Of a DNA stretch of 44,857 bases, positions 1 to 14,467 are shown piece after piece (position 1 is the stretch's first letter; each line of letters opens with the position of its first letter). The notes under the pieces are model-generated. The model did not search any database and had not been told where the DNA came from. It saw only the letters and a list, made by a program, of their open reading frames with translations. Both the position numbers and the translations under genes were made by a program. Origin of the DNA: a virus; UHGV virus genome UHGV-0186980; one strand, 5' to 3'.

Positions 1-3000
1 AGCCCGTTTTCCAGCGCCGTCGTCCGGTTCCCGATGCTGGACAACGTATCGCCCTGCTGAGTGACTTTCGTGGTCAGGGTATCCACTGCTGACGCGGTGG
101 CATCGGCGATTTTCTGTGCGCGGTTCGCTGCGGTGACGTTGCGCAGATGCCAGTCTGCTGCATACCAGACCGTACCAAAGGGTGAACTCTGGTTAACCTG
201 CAGGAAGGGGCGCAGGAAATTCGTGTCAGACGGCACCGTAAAGCGCCATGTTGCGCGCTTCCAGGCCGCCGTGGTTTTCGTGTTACCGCCAGAAAGTCTC
301 GCTTTAACCCCTTCCGTCGCTGAGGTGCCGCTGGCGATATAGAGATTAAAATCGGCCTGACCGGCGCCGCAGGCTACCAGGGCCGACATCTCGAAGACAT
401 CACCCGGAGTGACAGCAATGTTGTTTATTTTTGGGACATGATCGCGGCCTGCCAGACGAACCACGTACGCAAACGGGCAATCCCCGGGCACGCCAGCAGC
501 GCCGGATGATACGACGTCATACCCCATGCGGTCGTAAGAAGGATCAAATGCCGGGTTAGGTATATAGTCATCCCCGGCTGCTTTTGCGGCGCTAATTGAG
601 CTGTTGAGGGAAGTGATATTACTGTTCGCTGCAGTCAGGCCACTTTCCGTCTTCTCCACTCGCCCGGTCAGTGACGTCAGCGCGCTCTGATCCGCCTTTT
701 TACTCACATTCGAGTTCGTCGTGGTCAGGTCATTCTGCAGCTTTGTGATTGCCTGGCTGTGGCTGGCCAGTTTCCCTTCCGCTGAGTCAACGCGACTGGT
801 CAGGTCAGTCACGGCAGAGGCATTTGCCTTCTTCGACACCCCGGTCGACGAAAAAACGTCGACTTTACGGATATACAGACGCGCACTGTTTGACGGTACC
901 CAGCCCCCGGCGGCAAACCGCAGATAGACATAATTCCCGGTAAAGTTTTCCGGAATGGTCAGCTCCACGGTTTTCGTCTGCCAGCTGGTCGTCACGCCAC
1001 TCAGCCACGGGGATTCTGAGGATAGCCAGGCGACAGGATTGCCCAAATCAGTTATCACACCAACGGTATCAGACGATACGCTGTTCATCGTTTCCGATGT
1101 TTTGTACTCAAATGAGACGGTAAGCGTCAGCCCGGCCTCAGCAGGGATACGCGTGACGTTGGCAACCCGAACAGAGCCGGTTGTCGTTCTCAGCGCTTTT
1201 TCACCTGCATCATACGTGAATGCCGAGCCGGTACCGGAGTTCTCCCAGAACGACAGATCCACATCCATGCCGCCGTTACTAATCAGGCTCCCTTCAGCCA
1301 GGGTGTTTTTCAGCATCGTCAGCTGGCCAGACTGTGTGGTCAGGTTGCCTTCCGTCGCGGATACCCGGTTGGTTAACGCCGTGACCGCGCTCGCATCGGC
1401 CTTTTTACTGACGTTTGAATTGGTTGTCGTCAGGTCGTTCTGCAGTTTAGCGATCGCGCTGCCCTGGCTGGTCAGCGTTTTATCCTGCTGGCTGACGCTG
1501 GACTGCAGGCCCGTGATGGCGTTGCTGTTTGCGGCCACGCCCGACTCTGCTTTACCGACGCGGTTAGACAGCGAGGTCAGCGAATTCCCCTGGCTGGTTA
1601 ACGTAGTGCCCTGCTGTTCAACCTTTTGCGTGAGGGACTGCAGCGCGGTTGCATCGGCTTTTTTACCCAGACTGGTTTCCAGCCCGCTGATTTTGCTGGC
1701 CTGTGCGCTTTGTGCGGTCGACAGGGAACTCAGCTCCTCCGCCACCGAGGATTTATTCTCGTTGAACTGCGTCTGCAGCGATTCCCGGGCTGTCACCTCT
1801 GCTTTATCAGCAGTGATACGGGCATTCATCTCCTGAAACAACAGGCCAGAGCGCAGGTCTGCCAGATTATTGCTTTCACTCGTCCCCCGCATCTGCGTGG
1901 CCAGCGTGGCTCGCTTATTCGCTTCTGCCGTATCGGCATTCGCACGGGCTGTCGATTCTTCGCGCAATGCTGCAGTGCTGGCTCCCGGCGTCGGTCGACC
2001 CACGGCAATCCAGTCAATGATGATGAAATTATCATCAGACTGATCCACCGTTAAATCGAGGCGAAACTGGACAACCGGCTTGCTGTCATCGCTTCCCCAG
2101 GGAATGTCCTGAATACTGAGAACAGCCCTGCCACTGCTGTCATAATCCGGCTCTGCGACGGTCAGCATGCGACTGTCGTTGAACGACTGACCTTCATAGC
2201 GCCAGCGGATTTGACCACTCCACGCGGGCGTCCCCGTTTTCTTAAGACGCAGTTTCAGAAAGCGGTACGCTGAGCCACTGATACTGATTCCAGGAGATGT
2301 AATGTAAGCATCTGTCGCATGGTTTGCCGGTCTCAGCCAGCCGTTTTCAACAACCGAAGGCGTGCCGCCGTTAGATGTCCAGCCTTCCCGGTCGTTATCA
2401 AAGTACCAGATAGCCTGGCTGTCAAACTGCTCCCCGGTTCCCGCCGAAATCTGAGCCATCTGTGTGGCCAGAGAATCATTCACATTCTGGATGATTTGCT
2501 GTGTCGACTCGATAGCTGCAACACGCTCGTTTTTTTCATTCAGCAGCTGGTCTGCCGCCTGCGCCGCTTTCGCGTTGACGTCCGCAATGCGGTCGGCAGT
2601 CTCCTGTTTTACCGCTTTGTCCCAGCCTGTATTCGCCTGGGCGATGGACTGTTTCAGACTGTTTTCAACCGTCTGCAGCTGGGATTTTAACGCAGCATCC
2701 CCTTCGGCCAGGGTTTTGTTAACGTCAGCGATCTGCTGGTCAACGGAGGCATTAATATCGCTCACGGCATCGGTGATGCTCTTGTTGACTGCCGTGATAT
2801 TGTCACTGAGCGTCTGATTTACGCTGTTGATATTCTCCGTTATCGACTTGTTGACCGCCTCTATCTGCCCGTCAACCTGCTGGCGGATCTCAGACGCGGA
2901 ATCATCAATACTCTGGTTAATATCGGTGACCTGCTGCGCGACTTCTTCACGAATAGCATCGGCGGTTTTTGTCAGCTCCTTGTGGGTCTCCTCAATATCC

Positions 3001-5510
3001 CGCTGGGCTTCCTGCCAGGCTTCCGTATCCTTAATCGCATCGGTCAGCTTGTCGTAATACTCACCGATATCGTCGCTGGCCATCCCCTGCACCCAGGCGG
3101 TCCACGGGCTTTCATTGCCGATACGATCAACGATCCGCGCGCGGTACCAGAATATCGCCGCAATCTGCAGGCCCATCTGCTGATACGTTTTACCCGGATA
3201 CGCCACATCAGACAGCGCCATCGCCCCGTTGCCGTTGGGATTAGGACTGTACTGCAGCTCGGTTTTCTGCGTATCGCCGCTCCCCTCCGGGAACTCCCAG
3301 TTCAGCTGCACGCCATGCAGCAGGGAAGTGGTGGTCAGCGCCAGCGGTGCCGACGGCAAACCGATTTTTCCGGTCAGCGTTTTCTCTTCTGAGTATGCCC
3401 AGCCGCTGGAGACCTCTGCAGCGTTGATCGCCCGGACACGGGCCAGATAACGACCGGCGTAAATGCCGCTGACCTCGAACGAGGTGGTCGAGCTGCGCGG
3501 CACGTTAATCCAGTTACCGTCATTACGTCGCCACTGCGCTTCATACGAAATCGCATCTTTCACCGCATTCCAGTGCACCTGCATCGTTTCAACGCTGATG
3601 CCCTGATTCACCACAGAATACGAGCTGATGACGATATTTTCCGGCGGTGACTGGTTCCCCGGAGGAATAACGCTTATCGGGCGCTGGTCGATGATCGCGC
3701 CGGTATCGATACGCGGAAATTTATCCGGGTCGTGGGCCACGCCGGTGATTGTATACGTGGCATTGTTGTTGTCCTTTACCCCAATCACGCGGTACTGCTG
3801 TGTATACAGATCGTCGGACTCAATAACCCATACGCACTCTGTTTCCGGCGTCTCACTGTAGGCCGTAGTGACTGTTATCTGCCGTCGACCGTTGACTGAC
3901 TGGATCGTCCGGGCCTGAGATATGCCTGACGGTAGGTTCAGCTGCAGCCGGTCACCGGCTTTTGCATCAGTATCCCGGTCAAGGGTAATCACCCGGCCAT
4001 TAACCGCACTGATACGCCCGCCGTTCACGCGTCCGGCCAGCAGTTCATCAGCCAGGCCAATGATGTAGCCCGGCTGCGGAATTTTGCCATCGAGACCGAC
4101 ATCGATTTCAACCATGCGGTCTTTGTTGTTGGTCAGAATGCCCCACAGCCCTTTCCTGTGGGCTTCGCTCTGCCGGGTACACCCAATGGCCGTCACTTCG
4201 AGCTGGTTAAAGCTGTAGCGGGAAACCAGCTCCGGGACGAACGCCGGTTCCATCGCATCAGCATACGCATTCGCCGGGTCGGACCAGGAGACCAGCGCGT
4301 TGGTGTAGCGGGCCTTGCTTGTGCTGCTCGAATAACGCGGTTTGCCAATAATGTTCGCCCGCGTGTAGTTGAAATCAACATCGCGCGGCATATCCGCCTG
4401 CACAACAATCTGCTCACCGCTCCAGCAGGTCATTCCCCGGAAAATAGCCGCAAAGTCACGCAGCACGGTGTAGGCATCATTGCGTTCCTGCACGTAAACG
4501 TTACAGAGATAGCGAGGCTCCATGCCATCGCCGCCCCTGCCATCGGGGACCATCTGATCGCAATACTGCGCAATCTGGTACAGCGTCCATTTAGAGATAT
4601 TCGCGCTGGTCAGACGGTTGCCGAGGCCAAACCGGTCTGAAACAACGATATCGTAATAAATCCATGCCGGGTTATCCGTCCAGGCCCATTTAAACCCGCC
4701 GGTCCAGGTGCCGGTATACTCGCGGCTCTCCGGGTTGTAGTTATCAGGAACGCGGATCACGCGCCCGCGTGGCTCACAGGAAATTTGCGGGATGGAACCA
4801 TTAAACTGGCTGGAGTCGAACTCGATATAGAGCAGCGCGGTATGCGGATAGCGCAGCTTCGCGTCGATTACTTCTGTGTAGCTCTGTAACGTCATCACAT
4901 CGCCGATTTTGACGCTGTTGGCGTCCGGCGATACTTTCCGCAGGCGGAGCGTCCATGTGCTCCCCGCTTGCGGCAGGTCGATGCGGTGGCTGCGCTCATA
5001 GCCGGAAGTGGTTTTCCCGGTAACCGCCGTTTCCAGCACGGTCTGCCATGCACCGCCATCTGTCTGCAAATCGATGGCGTATTTAACCGTGTTGCCCACC
5101 ACGTCACCATCATCTTCCTGCTTCATCAGGGACGGCCACTTCAGACGGACGCGGACGGCAGATAGCTGAGTATTTGTAAACGTATGGCTCCAGGCGGTTT
5201 CGCTGGATATTTCTGTTCCGACGCTGATTTCATTTTCAGTGCCGGGAATGCCTTGAATATATTTTTGTGCCTGTGTTCCGGGACGAAATTCCCAGGCCAC
5301 GCCGGAAAAGTTCTCTGACCCGTCGGCATTTAATAGCGGGGTACCATCGAGATAAATATCCTTGCCCGTTAATTCACCTGCAAATTCTCCCTCGCCCAGC
5401 GCGATGAGAATTTTGGCTTTTGCTACGGACTGTAAATCATCCGGCTGCTCCGTCGGCGTGCGCTGGCTTGAGCTGCCACCTTTGCGCCCTTTGATTATGT
5501 TATTTGCCAT
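1..5510 (-). CDS. J: Host specificity / central tail fibre protein J-like, with long C-terminal fibre-repeat extension; 3' end truncated by window
   Basis: ATG at 5510-5508, N-terminus MANNIIKGRKGGSSSQRTPTEQ resembles lambda J; same frame checked open at 2040-2099 and at 3-119; absent from ORF track, consistent with an edge-truncated ORF. Antisense ORFs in the track (955..1836+ etc.) are Ser/Val/Ala-rich junk. Confidence 0.75.
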   Translation of the reverse strand, partial: MANNIIKGRKGGSSSQRTPTEQPDDLQSVAKAKILIALGEGEFAGELTGKDIYLDGTPLLNADGSENFSGVAWEFRPGTQAQKYIQGIPGTENEISVGTEISSETAWSHTFTNTQLSAVRVRLKWPSLMKQEDDGDVVGNTVKYAIDLQTDGGAWQTVLETAVTGKTTSGYERSHRIDLPQAGSTWTLRLRKVSPDANSVKIGDVMTLQSYTEVIDAKLRYPHTALLYIEFDSSQFNGSIPQISCEPRGRVIRVPDNYNPESREYTGTWTGGFKWAWTDNPAWIYYDIVVSDRFGLGNRLTSANISKWTLYQIAQYCDQMVPDGRGGDGMEPRYLCNVYVQERNDAYTVLRDFAAIFRGMTCWSGEQIVVQADMPRDVDFNYTRANIIGKPRYSSSTSKARYTNALVSWSDPANAYADAMEPAFVPELVSRYSFNQLEVTAIGCTRQSEAHRKGLWGILTNNKDRMVEIDVGLDGKIPQPGYIIGLADELLAGRVNGGRISAVNGRVITLDRDTDAKAGDRLQLNLPSGISQARTIQSVNGRRQITVTTAYSETPETECVWVIESDDLYTQQYRVIGVKDNNNATYTITGVAHDPDKFPRIDTGAIIDQRPISVIPPGNQSPPENIVISSYSVVNQGISVETMQVHWNAVKDAISYEAQWRRNDGNWINVPRSSTTSFEVSGIYAGRYLARVRAINAAEVSSGWAYSEEKTLTGKIGLPSAPLALTTTSLLHGVQLNWEFPEGSGDTQKTELQYSPNPNGNGAMALSDVAYPGKTYQQMGLQIAAIFWYRARIVDRIGNESPWTAWVQGMASDDIGEYYDKLTDAIKDTEAWQEAQRDIEETHKELTKTADAIREEVAQQVTDINQSIDDSASEIRQQVDGQIEAVNKSITENINSVNQTLSDNITAVNKSITDAVSDINASVDQQIADVNKTLAEGDAALKSQLQTVENSLKQSIAQANTGWDKAVKQETADRIADVNAKAAQAADQLLNEKNERVAAIESTQQIIQNVNDSLATQMAQISAGTGEQFDSQAIWYFDNDREGWTSNGGTPSVVENGWLRPANHATDAYITSPGISISGSAYRFLKLRLKKTGTPAWSGQIRWRYEGQSFNDSRMLTVAEPDYDSSGRAVLSIQDIPWGSDDSKPVVQFRLDLTVDQSDDNFIIIDWIAVGRPTPGASTAALREESTARANADTAEANKRATLATQMRGTSESNNLADLRSGLLFQEMNARITADKAEVTARESLQTQFNENKSSVAEELSSLSTAQSAQASKISGLETSLGKKADATALQSLTQKVEQQGTTLTSQGNSLTSLSNRVGKAESGVAANSNAITGLQSSVSQQDKTLTSQGSAIAKLQNDLTTTNSNVSKKADASAVTALTNRVSATEGNLTTQSGQLTMLKNTLAEGSLISNGGMDVDLSFWENSGTGSAFTYDAGEKALRTTTGSVRVANVTRIPAEAGLTLTVSFEYKTSETMNSVSSDTVGVITDLGNPVAWLSSESPWLSGVTTSWQTKTVELTIPENFTGNYVYLRFAAGGWVPSNSARLYIRKVDVFSSTGVSKKANASAVTDLTSRVDSAEGKLASHSQAITKLQNDLTTTNSNVSKKADQSALTSLTGRVEKTESGLTAANSNITSLNSSISAAKAAGDDYIPNPAFDPSYDRMGYDVVSSGAAGVPGDCPFAYVVRLAGRDHVPKINNIAVTPGDVFEMSALVACGAGQADFNLYIASGTSATEGVKARLSGGNTKTTAAWKRATWRFTVPSDTNFLRPFLQVNQSSPFGTVWYAADWHLRNVTAANRAQKIADATASAVDTLTTKVTQQGDTLSSIGNRTTALENG

Positions 5511-5520
5511 ATCGCGTCCA

Positions 5521-5546
5521 TAAAAAAAGCCACCGCAAGGTGGCCT
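5521..5546 (-). terminator. Intrinsic terminator-like hairpin between I and J (GCCACC-GCAA-GGTGGC followed by T-run on minus strand)
   Basis: 6-bp GC stem, 4-nt loop, 7 A on plus strand = U-run for minus-strand transcripts; 12 nt upstream of J ATG. Confidence 0.5.
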
Positions 5547-5573
5547 GTACTGGAGGAATTACTGACTGATTAT

Positions 5574-8136: not shown

Positions 8137-8471
8137 GGTTTAAATCCCTGAATAAAAGTGGCTGAAAGTGAATAATTCCCGCCGCCCATCGGCACGGGCT
8201 TATATTGTTCACAACGGAATAGCCCCGCATCTTCAAGCGGCGGAGTCCACTGAAACGACTTTGTACCTGCATGCCGGTCCAGGAACTGTTTTATTGGTCG
8301 GATATACTCCTCAGTACCGACAAAACTCAACTCCCATTCCTGGGACCGGGTATTTAATCCGTCCCCTGAAACCTGCGTATACCCGTCACCAAATTCCGCC
8401 TTTCTGGTGCGAAACTTCACGGTTTGCGCAGGGTTTACCCGGGGACTCCAAGTGAATATCTCAATGGCCAT
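8133..8471 (-). CDS. M: Minor tail protein M
   Basis: 112 aa, FGDGYTQ and WTPP motifs as in lambda gpM; overlaps L start and H stop. Confidence 0.75.
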   Translation of the reverse strand: MAIEIFTWSPRVNPAQTVKFRTRKAEFGDGYTQVSGDGLNTRSQEWELSFVGTEEYIRPIKQFLDRHAGTKSFQWTPPLEDAGLFRCEQYKPVPMGGGNYSLSATFIQGFKP

Positions 8472-11400
8472 TAGCGTTGTCCTCTTACGGCGCTCCAGAT
8501 AGCGCCACCCGGGCGCATATCCTTCGCCTGCAGCTCACGATATTTTTTCTCGACGAACGACCCAATCTGCTGGCCAAACTCTTCAAACCCTGACGTGCTG
8601 TCAGTCGAGGTTTTGTCGCCAGAAATGGTGATCCAGACTTTTGGCCCTTCAACAGACGCTGAGGGCTGGCCGGATGCTGTCGCCCGGATGCCTGAAAACT
8701 CATCCGCGGCACGCGGCGCAGGTATCATCGGAGCCGCCCCCATTCCGGTGATCCCCTCTGCGCTTGTGCTGAAACCTGTTCCGACAAGACTTTGAATCGT
8801 GGTCAGAAGTGACTGTGTCGCCATATCAATCAGCCCCTTAATGACCGACAGGGCCGGGCCGGAGGACTGTTCACCAATGGCACGGACGCCCAGCGAACCA
8901 TCAGTCCCTCGGGTCAGTGGCATAATGGCCTCTGGACCAGCCTCACCAAATACCCCCGCGCCTTTGGCAAAGGCGAAGAGCTGCGGGGTGTCGTGGATCT
9001 GGTTGCTGTAGGCACTTAATGAAGGGGAATCGTAGACGCCACCTTTTGCGTTGAATTCCACCGTGGCTGCAGCGGCTTCATACGAACCGGACGGCGTATT
9101 TCCACCTCCTGCCGCACCTGCACTTCCTCCGATCGCACCGCCAAAAGCAGAACCGACCATGCCAAAAATACTCTGCAGTGCACTGGAAAGCGCGATACGC
9201 GTGGCAATTTGCGCCAAATCTGAAAGGATTGAAATAGTAAAGCTTTTGAAGCTTCCTTTACCGGTTATGGCAAAGGAAGCGAGGGAGCTTGCCATGCTGT
9301 CAAAGGCACTCGTGGTAAAGCTGGCTATCTGGCTGTTTGCATCCCGCGCATTATCTGTCCAGTTCTTCGCCCCACGCCTGAATCCCGCGCTGTAATCCTG
9401 TTCTGCTCTCAGACGATCCTGCACGCTTTGCTCGGTAATCTGCAGTTCCTGCTGCTTTATCCGCTCCAGATCGGCCAGACGGGCCTGATATTCAGCCGAT
9501 GTGGTATCGATAAAATCTTTCTCCAGCGCAATGCGCCGCTGATTAAAGCGGTTAATAATGGCGTTACGGGCTTCTGCGTCGCTAGCTTCCTGTTCGGAAA
9601 GGTTGTACTTCTCCAGATTCAGAGCAGCTTCGCGCTGCATAGCCTGAGCCTCTTCAGCCCACTTACGGCTTTCAGCCTGATATTTCAGCGAGGTTTTTCG
9701 CAAGACGGCTTCTTTTTCAAGCTGAATATTCGACTGCAGTTGCGCCCGGATCTGGTCCTGCATATTCACCAGGCTTTGCTGGCTTTTGGTCAGGTTTTCA
9801 CCCTTCAGCCCGGAGAGTTTTTCATTAAAGGCGACCAGCTGTCGTTCGGATTCTGTCAACGTATCAGTGGTCTGCGCCTGTTCTTTCAGTACTGCGTTTC
9901 GTTGCAGTGCCTGCTCCAGCATTCGCTGCCCTTCAGTCTCGCCGCTACCAGACTTTTTGGGTTTATCTTTCTTCGTGGCCTTGTCGTATTCATCATTAAT
10001 CCCTTTCAGGATCCGCTGATACTCCTGCGAGCCGGATGCGTAAATGCTGTTATTGAGTTTTTTTATCGCTGCAGCACGCTTTTCTGCTGCGGTACTCCCG
10101 GCATCCATGTAGCTCTTCAGCCCGGCAGCGTTTTTTATACGGTCACTTTGTGCCTCGGCGTATCCTGCTTTGCTTGTAGCGATAAAGCGGCGTGTCTTTT
10201 CGTCAAACTCTTTCTGGTCTTTAGTGAGGAGATCGGTCAAAGCAATGGTTTCACCAAGACTTCCGAGTATCCCCCACTCACGCCCAAGATTTTTTAACTT
10301 ATCAAGATAAGTTTCCGCGTGTGCCGCCAGCTCTTTCAGTTTAAAGCTTTCCGCATCAAGAGCTTGTTCCATGATGAGCTGCGTTGCTTTCGCTGTTTCC
10401 CCTTTATTCGTCAGGCTGATAACCTGTGCGACAATGGATTCATTCAGCGAAATGCCCTGGGCTGTCAGCTGGGCCATCGCATTAAGCGGGTCTCCCTTCA
10501 GGGCAGATATTTTGCTGACCAGATCCTCAGCGTTCCCACCGGCTTCAGCGTAGGCTGTCGCAATAAATGCAACTTCATGCAGCAATGCACCACTGAAACC
10601 ACCGTTTGCCGCAGCGACCACAGCAGAAAGGGAATGTTCTGTACCACCAAGCTGAGCATTGAGGCTTCTCAGTTCAGTGAGAGATAACTGAGCTGACGTT
10701 CTCGTTCCGAGTAGCGCCGCATTCAGTTTTTTTGTTTGCTCCTCGGATTTTTTAAACTCGCTGTAAATCATTGAGCCACCGGCAGCAAGCACCGACAGGC
10801 CAATACCAACAGGTCCACCCAGCAGACTCATCGCCGAACTAAGCGCCCGGCTGCTGGTCGCTGCAATACGCTGGGTCACAGTAAGCTGGGTATTTGCCGC
10901 AGCAGCAGCTTCTGTTGCTGCTGTTAGTGCCGCCTTTCCACCTGTTTCGGCGGCATCAGCGGTCACAACAACCGCTTTGGCGGCTTTTAATTTTTCAAGC
11001 CCGCTGGCCTCAAGACGGTTCGCTTCAATGATCGCCCGCTCATTCTTCAGGTGTTCATCCTGATAGCTGACATTCAGCCCGTACAGCTTATTAACTTCGG
11101 TTTGTTTCGCGTAATACTCGTCCAGCGCAATCGCCTGCTCACGCTGGGCCTGCGCTGCCGCTATCGTCTTTTCAGCGATAGCAGCTTTATTCAGCGCAGA
11201 CTGCCTTTCGGCCTGTGCCGCCGCAATTTGTGCCTTTGCCGCCGACTCCAGTTCGGCAGCTGCCTGACGGGCTGCATCCTGCTGTGTCTTCCAGCCTCCT
11301 GCCGAACTGTCAAGTCGCCCCTTTAAGGTATGAACGGCGGGGATAAGTGCATTAATTATGCTGCTGCTGGCGACATTACTCCCGGCTGCAACTTCATGAA

Positions 11401-11653
11401 GCACGAAGTTCAGTTGGCCAGCACCTCGGGTGGCACCGGCAAACTGATCATCATTAGCACCCTGCACGCCGATTTTTTTTGCGGCCTCGACGGTTTTGGC
11501 TATCGCTGTTGTCAGCTCGTTAGCCTGTGCTGTCGCCTGCTGATTAAATTTTTTACTGGCCTGCCCTGCGTTCTGATATGCCTCGGTAATTTGCGACCGG
11601 AATGCAGCTGAATTCAGATGCAGGGCAACCGATAAGCTGGCTACATCACTCAT
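8471..11653 (-). CDS. H: Tail tape measure protein
   Basis: 1060 aa, Ala/Gln-rich coiled-coil protein downstream of G/T. Confidence 0.85.
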   Translation of the reverse strand: MSDVASLSVALHLNSAAFRSQITEAYQNAGQASKKFNQQATAQANELTTAIAKTVEAAKKIGVQGANDDQFAGATRGAGQLNFVLHEVAAGSNVASSSIINALIPAVHTLKGRLDSSAGGWKTQQDAARQAAAELESAAKAQIAAAQAERQSALNKAAIAEKTIAAAQAQREQAIALDEYYAKQTEVNKLYGLNVSYQDEHLKNERAIIEANRLEASGLEKLKAAKAVVVTADAAETGGKAALTAATEAAAAANTQLTVTQRIAATSSRALSSAMSLLGGPVGIGLSVLAAGGSMIYSEFKKSEEQTKKLNAALLGTRTSAQLSLTELRSLNAQLGGTEHSLSAVVAAANGGFSGALLHEVAFIATAYAEAGGNAEDLVSKISALKGDPLNAMAQLTAQGISLNESIVAQVISLTNKGETAKATQLIMEQALDAESFKLKELAAHAETYLDKLKNLGREWGILGSLGETIALTDLLTKDQKEFDEKTRRFIATSKAGYAEAQSDRIKNAAGLKSYMDAGSTAAEKRAAAIKKLNNSIYASGSQEYQRILKGINDEYDKATKKDKPKKSGSGETEGQRMLEQALQRNAVLKEQAQTTDTLTESERQLVAFNEKLSGLKGENLTKSQQSLVNMQDQIRAQLQSNIQLEKEAVLRKTSLKYQAESRKWAEEAQAMQREAALNLEKYNLSEQEASDAEARNAIINRFNQRRIALEKDFIDTTSAEYQARLADLERIKQQELQITEQSVQDRLRAEQDYSAGFRRGAKNWTDNARDANSQIASFTTSAFDSMASSLASFAITGKGSFKSFTISILSDLAQIATRIALSSALQSIFGMVGSAFGGAIGGSAGAAGGGNTPSGSYEAAAATVEFNAKGGVYDSPSLSAYSNQIHDTPQLFAFAKGAGVFGEAGPEAIMPLTRGTDGSLGVRAIGEQSSGPALSVIKGLIDMATQSLLTTIQSLVGTGFSTSAEGITGMGAAPMIPAPRAADEFSGIRATASGQPSASVEGPKVWITISGDKTSTDSTSGFEEFGQQIGSFVEKKYRELQAKDMRPGGAIWSAVRGQR

Positions 11654-11880
11654 TGTCCTAGAATCCTCATAACATCAGCACACTGCTGGTCAGCAAGAGA
11701 AGGGGAATGGCTGGCAGTGGTTTCTTGAGCGGACAGATGAACAGCTTCACCACCGCTCAGGGAGAACCAGGCCTGCCAGTAAAGAAGAATATCTGCAGGA
11801 AGACTGGCAATTTTTCGTGGGTCATACTCCCCCATGCGGGCGGCAAGCGAAAAAACCGCCATAAGCCAGGGGGAGTTCAT
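11650..11880 (-). CDS. T: Tail assembly chaperone T segment (expressed as G-T fusion by -1 frameshift)
   Basis: -1 frame ORF beginning at the G stop; slippery heptamer at the G 3' end. Confidence 0.6.
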   Translation of the reverse strand: MNSPWLMAVFSLAARMGEYDPRKIASLPADILLYWQAWFSLSGGEAVHLSAQETTASHSPSLADQQCADVMRILGQ

Positions 11881-12224
11881 TAGTTTTTTTGTGCTTCCTC
11901 CAGCGTACCGTAGCTAAAACGCTGGACCTTGCTCATCGCCTCGGTTATCGATGCATAGGAGCGTGATTTCATCAGTTCCAGCGGAGAAGGCAGGTTCTGC
12001 AGGGGAAGGCCATTTTCGTCGACCAGAGCGCTCAGTACCAGCCCTGCAGCTTCCAGCATCAGCCCTCGCGTATTATCGGGACCGGTCAGCTGTGATGCTT
12101 TATCTTCAAACTCTGACATTTCAAAGGCGGTAAGACGTCTGATATGGAATTCGCTGCCAAACAATTGGACAGGAACTGCATCACTGTCAGGGGCCAGAAG
12201 GCGGGATTTAACGTCATCTTTCAT
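11880..12224 (-). CDS. G: Tail assembly chaperone G
   Basis: 114 aa acidic protein immediately upstream of T and tape measure; conserved gene order. Confidence 0.6.
   Translation of the reverse strand: MKDDVKSRLLAPDSDAVPVQLFGSEFHIRRLTAFEMSEFEDKASQLTGPDNTRGLMLEAAGLVLSALVDENGLPLQNLPSPLELMKSRSYASITEAMSKVQRFSYGTLEEAQKN
11883..11889 (-). other. Programmed -1 frameshift slippery heptamer A_AAA_AAC at 3' end of G
   Basis: Minus-strand ...GCA CAA AAA AAC TAA; -1 shift reads ...K K L M N S P W = T frame. Confidence 0.6.
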
Positions 12225-12287: not shown

Positions 12288-12746
12288 TTATGCCCCGCTG
12301 CTGTTGGCAGTGCCCCAGGTGATTTTGTTCTGCTTTCCCTGCACGGTGATCTGAATGACCTCACTCGCCGGAGCGGTGATTTCGTTCATCTGCCAGCCGG
12401 ACAGCGCCAGCAACATCGTCGCCGTCCGCTTGTTCGGTAGTTCAACATACAGCTGGATAGTTTCTCGGGCTTCCGCTGCGTTAAGCAGAGCGGCAAAATC
12501 CGTATTGCTCGGATCATCAATAAAACCCAGCGACTTTTCAGGCCCGTCAGGCAGATCACTGATGGATTGTTTCTGCTTATCAAGCAGCGTAGTGCAGTCG
12601 ACAAAACCTCCCGTCTGCCCCATTGCGCCCAGCGCTTTACAGTTAACCAGCGGCTTCAGAGCCGATGCTGCAGCGCCGGGTTCCCCGTATTTTACGATGG
12701 TGCCAGCAGGCAACATCGCATATTCAGGCGAACTCTTATCAGCCAT
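12288..12746 (-). CDS. Major tail protein (V-position, HK97-like tail tube subunit)
   Basis: 152 aa, position upstream of G/T; no motif recognised. Confidence 0.5.
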   Translation of the reverse strand: MADKSSPEYAMLPAGTIVKYGEPGAAASALKPLVNCKALGAMGQTGGFVDCTTLLDKQKQSISDLPDGPEKSLGFIDDPSNTDFAALLNAAEARETIQLYVELPNKRTATMLLALSGWQMNEITAPASEVIQITVQGKQNKITWGTANSSGA

Positions 12747-13186: not shown

Positions 13187-13572
13187 GAAGAGTCCTCCAC
13201 GTAGTGAATGATGAAATCACGAATCAGGCGGTACTGGATGCTGCGGTTCGTCAGCGTCGTTTTATCCTGTTGGATACCACCACGCTCCACATACTGAACC
13301 GGGATACCCTCAAGCTGGCCGTGAACGATTGACTTCCATTCCGACCAGATTTTTTTATCAAGTAGCAGCAGTGAGGTGTAATCATCAACGCGGTACAGGT
13401 TCACCTGGATACGGGCAGATACGATCCCCGTCCGTAATGTTCCCGAGACCATTTCCGGGTCAGAGATACGCTGAAAGGTCACTCCTTCCTGGACCGTGTC
13501 CGGCAGTAAAAGCGGGTACGCATCCATGCCGGTGATGCGCTCCAGCGCGGTTTTAATCGCCAGTTCTATCAT
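13183..13572 (-). CDS. Head-tail joining / tail completion protein (start refined to internal ATG 13572)
   Basis: Track ORF N-terminus is junk-like and overlaps upstream gene; MIELAIKTALERITG start 20 nt inside upstream gene end. Confidence 0.45.
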   Translation of the reverse strand: MIELAIKTALERITGMDAYPLLLPDTVQEGVTFQRISDPEMVSGTLRTGIVSARIQVNLYRVDDYTSLLLLDKKIWSEWKSIVHGQLEGIPVQYVERGGIQQDKTTLTNRSIQYRLIRDFIIHYVEDSS

Positions 13573-13891
13573 GGCGCCCGTCAGCCTCCCCCGTAATGAT
13601 GATCCGGTCAGTTTTACGGTCGATATTCCGGACTGTATAAACCAAGTCTTTTGTCGTGATTTTCCAGTCGATATCGACCACCACGCCCGGATAGACGGTA
13701 AACAGGCAGGTTTCCACCACTTGCTGTTGGTCCATCGTGCGGACTTTTCTTCCCGATACCAGCTCCCGCTTTGCCCAGGCCTTTCCCGATTCAACTAACT
13801 TTTCCGGCAGCGGTTCACCCAACGGCCCACGACCGGATTGCATATAGCCAATCACAATGCGGCAGGTCATTTCTTCCGGTTTAAGACTCAT
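13553..13891 (-). CDS. Head-tail adaptor-like protein
   Basis: 112 aa, position between connector and tail completion genes. Confidence 0.45.
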   Translation of the reverse strand: MSLKPEEMTCRIVIGYMQSGRGPLGEPLPEKLVESGKAWAKRELVSGRKVRTMDQQQVVETCLFTVYPGVVVDIDWKITTKDLVYTVRNIDRKTDRIIITGEADGRHDRTGD

Positions 13892-14208
13892 AGCGTGTCC
13901 TTTAAAGGGAAAAGAAGACTACTTACCGACAACGTTTCCAGCCACTGGCCCCTGAATCCATTCAGATACGCATCGCCGACCAGATACTGCACGGCCAGCC
14001 TGATATCCTCATCTGCCACGAATCCACGGACGGTATCAGGGAGCGCTTGCAGCTCCTCATCACTGGTGACCAGCTTGCAGTTGTAATCACGCTCGATGCT
14101 TCGCTGTGCGGCGTTAACCATTCTCGTGAGCATGGCGTCGTGCTCAGTGAAATCCAGCTCCAGGCGAAGCTGGGTTTTCACATCATCCAATGTCAGTATC
14201 AAAATCAC
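13888..14208 (-). CDS. Head-tail connector (gp6-like); start refined to GTG/TTG near 14208/14202
   Basis: LTLDDVKTQLRLELDFTEHDAMLTRMVNAAQRSIE resembles gp6-like connector proteins; AGGGAG RBS upstream. Confidence 0.5.
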   Translation of the reverse strand: MILILTLDDVKTQLRLELDFTEHDAMLTRMVNAAQRSIERDYNCKLVTSDEELQALPDTVRGFVADEDIRLAVQYLVGDAYLNGFRGQWLETLSVSSLLFPLKDTL

Positions 14209-14467
14209 TTTCTCCCTTGCGGGGGGCCATCGCTTTCTTTGCGTCTTCCGGCCATACCGCAATATGACGTTCGACCAGCTCTTCAGCATGGACTGCATCA
14301 AAGCAGGCCGTATCGCCGCGCGAATATCGATGATGAGGGCCTAAGAAAACGACGGCCTTACGCCCCGAAGTGTTCGCTCCGACCACAATTTGGTCAGCAG
14401 TGTTTTCTGAACCTTCGACATCAGAACCGTCTTCGGTCGCCGCTGGTTTAGTCGCTTTACCTGCCAT
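14183..14467 (-). CDS. Hypothetical protein downstream of major capsid gene
   Basis: 94-aa ORF with plausible codon usage; no motif recognised. Confidence 0.4.
   Translation of the reverse strand: MAGKATKPAATEDGSDVEGSENTADQIVVGANTSGRKAVVFLGPHHRYSRGDTACFDAVHAEELVERHIAVWPEDAKKAMAPRKGESDFDTDIG

What the first reader, a model, noticed from the sequence alone, without database searches (positions are those of the whole stretch)
11878..11892. Conserved G-T programmed -1 frameshift signal
The slippery heptamer A_AAA_AAC occupies the last codons of G, and the -1 frame continues as the T ORF through to the tape-measure start. This matches the conserved tail assembly chaperone frameshift of long-tailed phages and confirms the gene calls.
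Basis: partly seen in the sequence, partly recalled or inferred. Interest (0 to 1): 0.25.

Follow-up and report, generated by a model that had tools for sequence, protein, structure and literature searches.

The report
Phage tail chaperone G-T frameshift site
This is the well-known programmed -1 ribosomal frameshift that lets a long-tailed phage make a small amount of a fused "G-T" tail-assembly chaperone alongside plain G; it is real and strongly conserved, but ordinary.

Summary
Gene G (12224..11880, Pfam Phage_TAC_14) ends CAA AAA AAC TAA. The heptamer A_AAA_AAC (11889..11883) forms its last codons, and the -1 frame runs on for 77 codons (T) to a TGA that overlaps the tape-measure ATG (11653).

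The G-T fusion matches a 195-position tail-chaperone profile (phrog_25875) end to end. In relatives found through the T domain alone, 55 of 59 non-redundant junctions have AAAAAAC followed directly by a stop. The three heptamer codons never vary (60/60), while flanking codons vary synonymously. 53 of 60 homologs have no start codon for T, so the window's TAATG start is not conserved.

A 51-nt hairpin begins 6 nt downstream (-28.8 kcal/mol, z = -4.3). Its outer stem shows compensatory changes at third-codon positions; one pair is intact in 53/53 sequences with six pair types.

phiKO2 gp13/gp14, a family member, is already annotated as a putative programmed frameshift, and IS1 uses the same A6C motif in E. 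coli.

Rivals are transcriptional slippage on the A7 run and independent T initiation; both are less likely. No protein-level evidence exists here.

The parts
11880..12224 (-). Gene G, tail assembly chaperone (114 aa), the 0-frame product
   Evidence: ORF. Pfam PF16462 Phage_TAC_14 at E 2.9e-12, 47 bits against a 22.1 cut-off. phrog_25875 and phrog_344 tail assembly chaperone.
11883..11889 (-). Slippery heptamer A_AAA_AAC (last A of CAA, then AAA, then AAC), the proposed -1 shift site
   Evidence: The codons are NAA-AAA-AAC in 60/60 non-redundant homologs while flanking codons vary synonymously. Present with an adjacent stop in 55/59 junctions ascertained through T only.
11880..11882 (-). G stop codon TAA directly 3' of the heptamer; a possible 'shifty stop' contributor
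   Evidence: A stop is adjacent in 82/86 loci and in 55/59 unbiased contexts (TGA 29, TAA 24, TAG 2). One homolog (L138) has a sense codon in between.
11650..11885 (-). T segment: the -1 frame read after the shift (CUA AUG AAC UCC ...), 77 codons plus TGA. It gives a 191-aa G-T fusion.
   Evidence: The T part matches phrog_14748 and positions 118-194 of phrog_25875, and the fusion matches positions 4-194 of 195 in one stretch at 165 bits. T is in the -1 frame in all homologs with a T hit except the indel variants.
11878..11880 (-). In-frame ATG of T overlapping G's stop (TAATG). It is not conserved and is probably incidental.
   Evidence: The same T-frame codon is ACC 25, ACT 15, ATG 7, AGG 4 and others among 63 unique contexts. 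53/60 homologs have no ATG/GTG/TTG before the conserved SPW motif.
11826..11876 (-). 51-nt hairpin 6 nt 3' of the heptamer; the putative frameshift stimulator. The outer stem is 11876..11869 paired with 11833..11826.
   Evidence: MFE -28.8 kcal/mol, z = -4.31, 0/200 shuffles fold as well. Outer stem is 88.9% paired in 53 sequences against 75.3% shuffled; covariation score 0.297 against 0.088 (0/500); slid controls are at most 0.095. Pair 23-65 is paired in 53/53 with 6 pair types and needs at least 11 state changes on an NJ tree. Mean pair probability is 0.82-0.98 for the core 7 bp. Against: RNAalifold predicted no consensus structure.
11897..11901 (-). SD-like GGAGG 7 nt 5' of the heptamer (codons Leu-Glu-Glu); a possible upstream stimulator, unproven
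   Evidence: GAGG sits at this spacing in 46/60 homologs and is absent in 14. It is largely explained by the conserved L-E-E residues.
8471..11653 (-). Tape measure protein gene (1060 aa). Its ATG overlaps the T stop as ATGA.
   Evidence: Pfam Tape_meas_lam_C at 6.7e-19 and TMP_4 at 1.1e-17.
12288..12746 (-). Major tail tube gene immediately upstream of G
   Evidence: Pfam Phage_TTP_13 at 2.7e-74.

Best explanation
This is a programmed -1 ribosomal frameshift of the lambda G/G-T type in the late operon of a Klebsiella oxytoca lambdoid prophage. Most ribosomes translate G (114 aa) and terminate at TAA. A small fraction slip back one base on A_AAA_AAC. This happens either with tRNA-Lys in the P site and tRNA-Asn in the A site (tandem slip), or with tRNA-Asn in the P site while the stop codon waits in the A site. 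These ribosomes then read CUA AUG AAC UCC... in the -1 frame and produce a 191-aa G-T fusion (...Q-K-N-L-M-N-S-P-W...) that ends just as the tape-measure gene starts. AAC-ending heptamers are weak shifters in E. coli, so the slip is probably boosted by the conserved hairpin 6 nt downstream, and perhaps by the adjacent stop codon and the upstream GGAGG. By analogy with lambda, the G domains of G and G-T coat the tape-measure protein, and the T domain recruits the tail tube protein. Shown here: the sequence anatomy, protein family membership, nucleotide-level conservation of the heptamer, the absence of a T start in most homologs, and covariation in the hairpin. Inferred: that slippage occurs, its efficiency, the role of the hairpin, stop and SD, and the protein function.
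For: Anatomy. G is Pfam Phage_TAC_14, and tail tube and TMP flank it. The fusion matches phrog_25875 across positions 4-194 of 195 in one stretch at 165 bits, against 81 bits for G alone and 65 for T alone. All tblastn hits in annotated phages come in two pieces, meaning two frames. phiKO2 gp13/gp14 is annotated 'putative programmed frameshift'. AAAAAAC plus stop occurs in 82/86 loci and in 55/59 non-redundant loci ascertained through T only. The heptamer codons are invariant in 60/60, while the neighbouring Ala, Leu and Glu codons vary synonymously. AAC is never AAT, although AAT would be synonymous in both frames. 53/60 homologs lack any start codon for T upstream of the conserved SPW motif. 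For the hairpin: z = -4.3, covariation 0/500 shuffles with low slid controls, and at least 11 state changes at one pair without ever unpairing. Rare contigs with one extra A in the run fuse G and T in frame as ...EEAKKKL..., which places the frame junction at the run. Literature: G-T frameshifting is widely conserved, a 30:1 G:GT ratio is crucial, and A_AAA_AAC is used for g-t in HCTV-2 (PMC5009743). IS1's A_AAA_AAC is a proven -1 PRF in E. coli (PMC4066793; PMC12428005).
Against: There is no protein or reporter evidence for this locus or, to my knowledge, for any member of this TAC_14 family; phiKO2's annotation says 'putative'. A_AAA_AAC is a weak shifter in E. coli (PMC5009743; PMC4066793). 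RNAalifold found no consensus structure on the same alignment, and the 111-nt context folds no better than shuffles (z = -1.33). The window has an in-frame ATG for T overlapping G's stop (TAATG), which could allow coupled reinitiation. The A7 run could also support some transcriptional slippage, which gives the same reading frame. A Vibrio-phage clade of the same family lacks the heptamer, so the motif is not universal in the family.
Confidence: 0.85

Rival explanations
1. Transcriptional slippage. RNA polymerase occasionally adds one extra A while copying the A7 run, producing mRNAs in which G and T are in the same frame. Standard translation then gives G-T as ...Q-K-K-L-M-N-S-P-W....
For: The site is a homopolymer of 7-9 A in all homologs. 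One extra A gives exactly the right frame, as shown by contigs L012, L013, L102 and L117 with A9 in place of A8, which encode in-frame fusions. Bacterial RNAP slips efficiently on runs of 9 A/T (PMC5009743).
Against: The run is only A7 in the window and in 42/60 homologs; only 2/60 reach A9. The review describes efficient slippage at 9. Three conserved features are expected of a ribosomal signal and not of a polymerase slippage site: the codon phase, the invariant C at heptamer position 7 (AAT would be synonymous in both frames), and the covarying hairpin located downstream. The identical A6C motif in IS1 is described as ribosomal frameshifting. A minor contribution cannot be excluded.
Confidence: 0.07
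2. Independent or coupled initiation of T. In this prophage the ATG at 11880..11878 overlaps G's TAA (TAATG), so terminating ribosomes reinitiate and make a free 76-aa T protein. No fusion is needed, and the heptamer is incidental.
For: TAATG stop/start overlap is a common coupling arrangement in phage operons. Gene callers list T as an ATG ORF of 76 aa. Seven of 60 unique homolog contexts share this ATG.
Against: 53/60 homologs have no ATG/GTG/TTG in the T frame before the conserved SPW motif, and the codon at the ATG position is mostly ACC or ACT. No SD-like sequence lies within 3-16 nt of the ATG in any of the seven; GGAGG is 16 nt upstream (11901..11897). This rival does not explain the 60/60 nucleotide invariance of the heptamer or the covarying hairpin. 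The fusion matches a single full-length profile. In lambda the T domain functions only as part of G-T (PMC5009743). Free T could still be made as a by-product.
Confidence: 0.05
3. Chance or coding artefact. The K-N C-terminus of G happens to be encoded AAA AAC, and T is a separate small gene or a non-functional ORF, with no recoding.
For: AAAAAAC is common in this window, 19 copies. In-phase slippery heptamers occur at 0.5% of codon positions.
Against: T is conserved as protein in the -1 frame at 34-72% identity across dozens of phages. The heptamer shows zero synonymous variation in 60 sequences while its neighbours vary. The gene order and the exact abutment to the TMP start are conserved.
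Confidence: 0.02

Closest known systems
Bacteriophage lambda G / G-T programmed -1 frameshift (Levin, Hendrix and Casjens 1993; Xu, Hendrix and Duda 2004, 2013, 2014; reviewed in PMC5009743)
   Same: Two overlapping ORFs lie between the major tail gene and the tape-measure gene. The second ORF is in the -1 frame, and an X_XXY_YYZ heptamer sits near the end of G. A low-level fusion product is expected. The neighbouring genes are lambda-like (Tape_meas_lam_C, M, L, K, I).
   Different: The heptamer is A_AAA_AAC rather than lambda's G_GGA_AAG. It sits in the very last two codons, directly against the stop. G belongs to a different sequence family (Phage_TAC_14). A covarying 3' hairpin is present. 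Whether lambda has an equivalent was not examined here.
Klebsiella phage phiKO2 gp13/gp14 and the PY54, P840, KpLi5 and Fostie homologs (the same Phage_TAC_14 / phrog_25875 family)
   Same: Homologous G and T (about 36-47% identity). The ...GAA AAA AAC TAA junction, the -1 T frame, the abutment to the TMP start, and the hairpin outer stem (CTCGCCC/GGGCGAG) are all shared. phiKO2's GenBank record annotates a 'putative programmed frameshift from gene 13'.
   Different: Those phages have no in-frame ATG at the junction; the window has TAATG. They are N15-like linear-plasmid prophages or other siphoviruses, whereas the window is an integrated lambdoid prophage. Several of their records lack or mis-call T.
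IS1 insA-insB' A6C (A_AAA_AAC) -1 frameshift in E. coli
   Same: The same heptamer is used in an enterobacterial host near the end of the upstream ORF, giving a low-level fusion protein (PMC12428005; PMC4066793).
   Different: IS1 has no established stimulator, while here a conserved hairpin follows at 6 nt. The proteins and biology are unrelated.
E. coli dnaX -1 frameshift signal (upstream SD, A_AAA_AAG, 3' stem-loop)
   Same: An A-rich heptamer with a 3' stem-loop a few nucleotides downstream and an SD-like element upstream.
   Different: The heptamer ends in AAC (tRNA-Asn), not AAG, so it is much weaker (PMC5009743). The SD-like element is 7 nt upstream and present in only 46/60 homologs. 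The shift extends the protein, whereas in dnaX it truncates it.

Membership tests
Long-tailed phage G/G-T tail assembly chaperone -1 frameshift (lambda paradigm) | Two adjacent ORFs located between the major tail (tube) gene and the tape-measure gene | tested here: met
   Tail tube 12746..12288 (Phage_TTP_13, 2.7e-74), G 12224..11880, T 11880..11650, TMP 11653..8471 (Tape_meas_lam_C, TMP_4).
Long-tailed phage G/G-T tail assembly chaperone -1 frameshift (lambda paradigm) | The downstream ORF is in the -1 frame and overlaps the end of the upstream ORF | tested here: met
   The T frame is -1, open from 11913, with a 31-nt overlap. It is -1 in all homologs with a T hit except the indel variants.
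Long-tailed phage G/G-T tail assembly chaperone -1 frameshift (lambda paradigm) | A slippery X_XXY_YYZ sequence in 0-frame phase within the overlap | tested here: met
   A_AAA_AAC at 11889..11883.
Long-tailed phage G/G-T tail assembly chaperone -1 frameshift (lambda paradigm) | The arrangement and the shift site are conserved among homologs beyond what the protein sequence requires | tested here: met
   55/59 unbiased unique junctions. Heptamer codons are invariant in 60/60 against synonymous variation in the flanks.
Long-tailed phage G/G-T tail assembly chaperone -1 frameshift (lambda paradigm) | The downstream ORF lacks its own conserved translation start | tested here: met
   53/60 homologs have no ATG/GTG/TTG before the SPW motif. 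The window's ATG is shared by only 7 contexts and has no SD within range.
Long-tailed phage G/G-T tail assembly chaperone -1 frameshift (lambda paradigm) | Both G and a larger G-T fusion protein are produced, at a fixed low GT:G ratio | not testable with these tools
   This needs western blotting, mass spectrometry or a reporter assay.
Long-tailed phage G/G-T tail assembly chaperone -1 frameshift (lambda paradigm) | G and G-T are required for tail assembly and are absent from virions | not testable with these tools
   This needs genetics and virion proteomics.
Pfam PF16462 Phage_TAC_14 / PHROG 25875 | Score above the curated gathering threshold; full-length match of the fusion to the PHROG profile | tested here: met
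   47 bits against a 22.1 cut-off, profile positions 2-113 of 113. The fusion scores 165 bits over positions 4-194 of 195.
Ribosomal -1 PRF with a 3' RNA stimulator | A stable stem-loop or pseudoknot starting about 5-9 nt 3' of the heptamer, supported by covariation | tested here: met
   6-nt spacer, -28.8 kcal/mol, z = -4.31. Covariation 0.297 against 0.088 with 0/500 shuffles. Multiple independent compensatory events. Caveat: RNAalifold gave no consensus structure, and the stimulatory function itself was not tested.
dnaX-type upstream SD stimulator | A conserved SD-like sequence at a stimulatory distance 5' of the heptamer | tested here: inconclusive
   GGAGG lies 7 nt upstream in the window. 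GAGG is present in 46/60 and absent in 14/60, and is confounded by the conserved Leu-Glu-Glu codons.
Programmed transcriptional slippage site | A homopolymer run long enough for efficient RNAP slippage (about 9 A/T per PMC5009743) | tested here: not met
   The window has A7. Homologs have A7 in 42, A8 in 16 and A9 in 2. Literature threshold.
Rfam curated frameshift elements | A match to any Rfam family at the gathering score | tested here: not met
   No hits in the whole window.

The most novel reading that the evidence does not exclude
The most novel reading that remains open concerns how the signal works in this TAC_14 family. The frameshift signal may be a fixed three-part module: a deliberately weak A6C heptamer, a stop codon that is almost always directly adjacent, and a covarying 51-nt hairpin. 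Under this reading, slippage competes with termination (a 'shifty stop' with tRNA-Asn in the P site). The G:G-T ratio would then be set by release-factor activity and hairpin stability rather than by the heptamer alone. This would be a family-specific variant of the lambda mechanism and possibly responsive to host physiology.
Probability: 0.3. Interest if true: 0.3.

Novelty: already known. Interest (0 to 1): 0.12.

Why it matters
It matters mainly for annotation. The 191-aa G-T fusion should be annotated as a ribosomal-slippage CDS. T should not be called as a free 76-aa protein or dropped, as several public records of this family do. The comparative data also give a clean, testable example of a weak A6C heptamer paired with a covarying 3' hairpin and an adjacent stop codon. 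This could be useful as a benchmark for frameshift predictors and for dissecting how low frameshift ratios are tuned. It does not open a new biological question.

Tried and rejected
(1) RNAalifold on the 53-sequence junction alignment returned no consensus structure. I therefore tested the stem seen in the single-sequence fold explicitly and with per-sequence partition functions.
(2) Folding 111 nt of context gave an unimpressive z of -1.33. Only the isolated 51-nt hairpin is significant. The region upstream of the heptamer shows no significant structure (z = -1.0).
(3) The genome-contig scan with G alone returned only the source locus. That identified the host but gave no diversity.
(4) The first viral scan used a pattern that included G's C-terminus, so its count was biased. 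I repeated it with T-only patterns.
(5) There was no PDB sequence relative of G-T at E <= 1. Structure prediction was not pursued because it would not bear on the frameshift.
(6) The primary phiKO2 paper (PMC355964) is not held, and the P840 paper does not discuss the frameshift.
(7) I suspected that a J (tail tip) gene was missing downstream of gpI. It is a >1850-aa ORF that runs off the window edge.
(8) I considered the other in-phase heptamers with long -1 ORFs (8513, 13912-13906). They are ordinary overlaps with the next gene.
(9) No Rfam family and no tRNA were found in the window.

Full report
**1. The observation**

The genes in this region are on the minus strand. Read on that strand, 11894..11878 is GCA CAA AAA AAC TAA TG.
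- The 114-aa ORF 12224..11880 (G) ends ...E-A-Q-K-N followed by TAA.
- The heptamer A_AAA_AAC occupies 11889..11883 in the X_XXY_YYZ phase, directly against the stop (11882..11880).
- The -1 frame is open from 11913, a 31-nt overlap. It continues for 77 codons to TGA 11652..11650, which overlaps the ATG (11653..11651) of a 1060-aa ORF as ATGA.

The one thing missing is the strand.

On its own the heptamer is unremarkable.
- AAAAAAC occurs 19 times in the window, against 9.6 expected.
- In-phase X_XXY_YYZ motifs occupy 54 of 10,725 codon positions in the window's long ORFs.
- The one at 11889 is the only such motif that sits at the very end of its ORF and opens a long -1 ORF. The exceptions are sites where the -1 ORF is simply the next overlapping gene.

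**2. What the genes are**

- G matches Pfam Phage_TAC_14 (47 bits against a 22.1 cut-off).
- The upstream gene is a tail tube protein (Phage_TTP_13, 2.7e-74).
- The downstream 1060-aa protein is a tape-measure protein (Tape_meas_lam_C, TMP_4).

The wider context is a standard lambdoid late operon on the minus strand. It runs TerL, portal, S49 protease, HK97-fold capsid, connectors, tube, G, T, TMP, M, L, K, I, and then a >1850-aa J-like ORF that runs off the window. An integrase, a CI-like repressor and two DNA methylases lie at the other end. G is 100% identical to a chromosomal locus of Klebsiella oxytoca NBRC 105695, so this is an integrated prophage.

The conceptual G-T fusion matches PHROG 25875. 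This is a 195-position 'tail assembly chaperone' profile. The match covers positions 4-194 in a single stretch at 165 bits, against 81 bits for G alone and 65 for T alone. Full-length fusions of this family are therefore already represented in phage annotation.

**3. Comparative evidence**

A tblastn search of the fusion against annotated phages found 97 records, each matching in two pieces, which means two reading frames.

phiKO2, PY54, P840, KpLi5 and Fostie share about 31-37% G identity and 41-47% T identity with the window. All five have ...AAA AAC followed by a stop (TAA in four, TGA in KpLi5). None has an in-frame ATG for T at the junction.

A scan of IMG/VR gave 80 more loci, and 82 of 86 loci in total carry AAAAAAC plus a stop. 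That scan used a peptide pattern covering G's C-terminus, so I repeated it with patterns from the T domain only. Of 59 non-redundant junctions from the repeat scan:
- 55 have AAAAAAC followed directly by a stop (29 TGA, 24 TAA, 2 TAG);
- one has AAAAAAC, then one sense codon, then a stop;
- two contexts have one extra A in the run, which puts G and T in one frame (...EEAKKKL...);
- one has one A fewer.

The ±1 variants are either homopolymer sequencing errors or natural indels. Either way, they place the frame junction at the run.

Codon-level conservation is the strongest single argument. In 60 non-redundant homologs:
- the three heptamer codons are NAA-AAA-AAC in 60/60;
- the adjacent Ala codon uses all four synonyms;
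- Leu uses six codons;
- Glu uses both GAG and GAA;
- AAC is never AAT, although AAT would be silent in both frames (Asn in frame 0, TTA Leu in the -1 frame).

**4. Does T start on its own?**

In this window an ATG (11880..11878) overlaps G's stop as TAATG. It is not conserved.
- The same T-frame codon is ACC in 25, ACT in 15, ATG in 7 and AGG in 4 among 63 unique contexts, with a few others.
- 53 of 60 homologs have no ATG, GTG or TTG anywhere in the T frame between its upstream stop and the conserved SPW(L) motif five codons after the heptamer.
- None of the seven ATG-bearing contexts has an SD-like sequence within 3-16 nt.

Free T may be a by-product here, but it cannot be how the family expresses the T domain.

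**5. A downstream hairpin**

A 51-nt hairpin (11876..11826) begins 6 nt after the heptamer. Its MFE is -28.8 kcal/mol, z = -4.31, and none of 200 dinucleotide shuffles folds as well.

Results on 53 non-redundant, gap-free homologous junctions (alignment A2):
- The 8-bp outer stem is 88.9% paired, against 75.3% in shuffles.
- The covariation score is 0.297 against 0.088 (0/500 shuffles), and all register-slid controls are at or below 0.095.
- The pair between the third base of the Ser codon (SPW) and the third base of the Gly codon (GE.D) is intact in 53/53. Its six pair types are CG 20, AU 14, GC 12, GU 5, UA 1 and UG 1.
- A second pair is CG 24, GC 17, GU 3, UG 3, with 6 unpaired.
- On a rough NJ tree built from the flanking columns, the first pair needs at least 11 state changes and is never unpaired.
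- Per-sequence partition functions give mean pair probabilities of 0.82-0.98 for the core 7 bp, and 0.4-0.7 for the inner helices, which vary between lineages.

Three points count against the hairpin. RNAalifold returned no consensus structure for the same alignment. The 111-nt context is not significantly structured. The shuffle control does not correct for phylogeny.

The position (6-7 nt 3' of the shift site) and the synonymous-site covariation are what is expected of a -1 PRF stimulator. That role is inferred, not shown.

An SD-like GGAGG lies 7 nt upstream (11901..11897). GAGG is present at this spacing in 46/60 homologs, but it is confounded with the conserved Leu-Glu-Glu codons. I leave it as inconclusive.

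**6. Mechanism and rivals**

The best-supported mechanism is a low-efficiency -1 ribosomal slip on A_AAA_AAC. Two variants are possible: tandem P/A-site slippage, or P-site tRNA-Asn slippage while the stop codon occupies the A site. Both give ...Q-K-N-L-M-N-S-P-W... and a 191-aa G-T.

Published work agrees on the background.
- G-T frameshifting is widely conserved, and a roughly 30:1 G:GT ratio is crucial for lambda tail assembly (PMC5009743).
- A_AAA_AAC is much less shift-prone than A_AAA_AAG in E. coli.
- Heterogeneous ZZN codons such as AAC are poor shifters, and stimulators raise their efficiency (PMC4066793).
- The identical A6C motif is the proven -1 frameshift site of IS1.

A weak heptamer together with a hairpin and an adjacent stop is a plausible way to set a low ratio.

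Transcriptional slippage would give the same frame, with the product ...Q-K-K-L.... It is the main rival. However, the run is only A7 in the window and in 42/60 homologs, while efficient slippage is described for runs of about 9. It would also not explain the conserved C, the phase, or a downstream hairpin. Independent T initiation and pure chance are addressed in sections 3 and 4.

**7. Comparison with known systems, and novelty**

The locus meets every sequence-level criterion of the lambda-type G/G-T frameshift. It belongs to the same protein family as phiKO2 gp13/gp14, where the frameshift was already proposed.

It differs from lambda in three ways: the heptamer (A6C, not G_GGA_AAG), its position flush against the stop, and its protein family.

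The hairpin with covariation and the near-invariant adjacent stop are tidy details, but conserved hairpins at phage G-T sites have been considered before (PMC4066793). No Rfam family covers the hairpin.

**8. Verdict**

The feature is real and ordinary. Its practical value is correct annotation of the 191-aa G-T product.

Confidence that a G-T fusion is made by -1 ribosomal frameshifting at this heptamer is about 0.85. No protein-level evidence is available.

Noticed in passing
L005 1495..2090 (Vibrio phage K282; 82 similar Vibrio phage records): A Vibrio-phage clade of the same chaperone family keeps the G / -1 T / TMP layout but lacks A6C. Its G ends GCA AAG GAA GCC TAA, so the only obvious shift-prone element is an A_AAG tetramer two codons before the stop. 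A different hairpin (CACUUCU...AGAAGUG) follows. The shift motif appears to have been replaced within the family.
   Followed up: partly
L012/L117/L121, L013/L102, L033, L124 (IMG/VR contigs): The homopolymer length varies by ±1 A. An A9 in place of A8 fuses G and T in frame in two lineages. An A6 in place of A7 breaks the arrangement in L124. L033 carries a 1-nt indel at another A-run about 30 nt upstream. These could be sequencing errors or natural indels that bypass or abolish the frameshift.
   Followed up: partly
L004 1468..2025 (Klebsiella phage KpLi5); L002 (PY54); L003 1941..2078 (P840): Public records mis-annotate this locus. KpLi5 calls an antisense 'hypothetical protein' across G-T. 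PY54 has no T or G-T CDS. P840 calls only a truncated 46-aa ORF16. Several Klebsiella phage records have no annotation here at all.
   Followed up: no
window 3..5558 (-): A J-like central tail fibre ORF of more than 1850 aa follows gpI and runs off the left edge of the window. This is unusually long compared with lambda J. It is not listed by the ORF tool because it is cut by the window end.
   Followed up: partly
window 13900..13912 (-): A cluster of three consecutive in-phase slippery heptamers (TTT CCC TTT AAA G) sits 3-5 codons before the stop of the head-tail connector gene (14301..13888). The -1 frame is open for about 115 codons because it is the next gene (13891..13553, Phage_HCP). This is probably an ordinary ATGA gene overlap rather than recoding.
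   Followed up: no
window, whole: AAAAAAC is about twice as frequent as expected: 19 copies against 9.6, and none of 100 shuffles reaches 19. Five of the copies fall in the tape-measure and G genes on the coding strand. This is likely Lys/Asn-rich coding bias.
   Followed up: no
window 27739..28815 (-), 31125..33098 (-), 30070..31128 (-): The prophage carries two DNA methyltransferases, an N6/N4 type and a 657-aa protein with a C5-cytosine methylase domain in its N-terminal part, flanking a DUF968 protein. The C-terminal roughly 500 aa of the 657-aa protein has no Pfam match.
   Followed up: no
window 11650..11653 and 11878..11882 (-): G, T and TMP are chained by overlapping stop/start signals: TAATG at G/T and ATGA at T/TMP. 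This is consistent with tight translational coupling through the tail module.
   Followed up: yes
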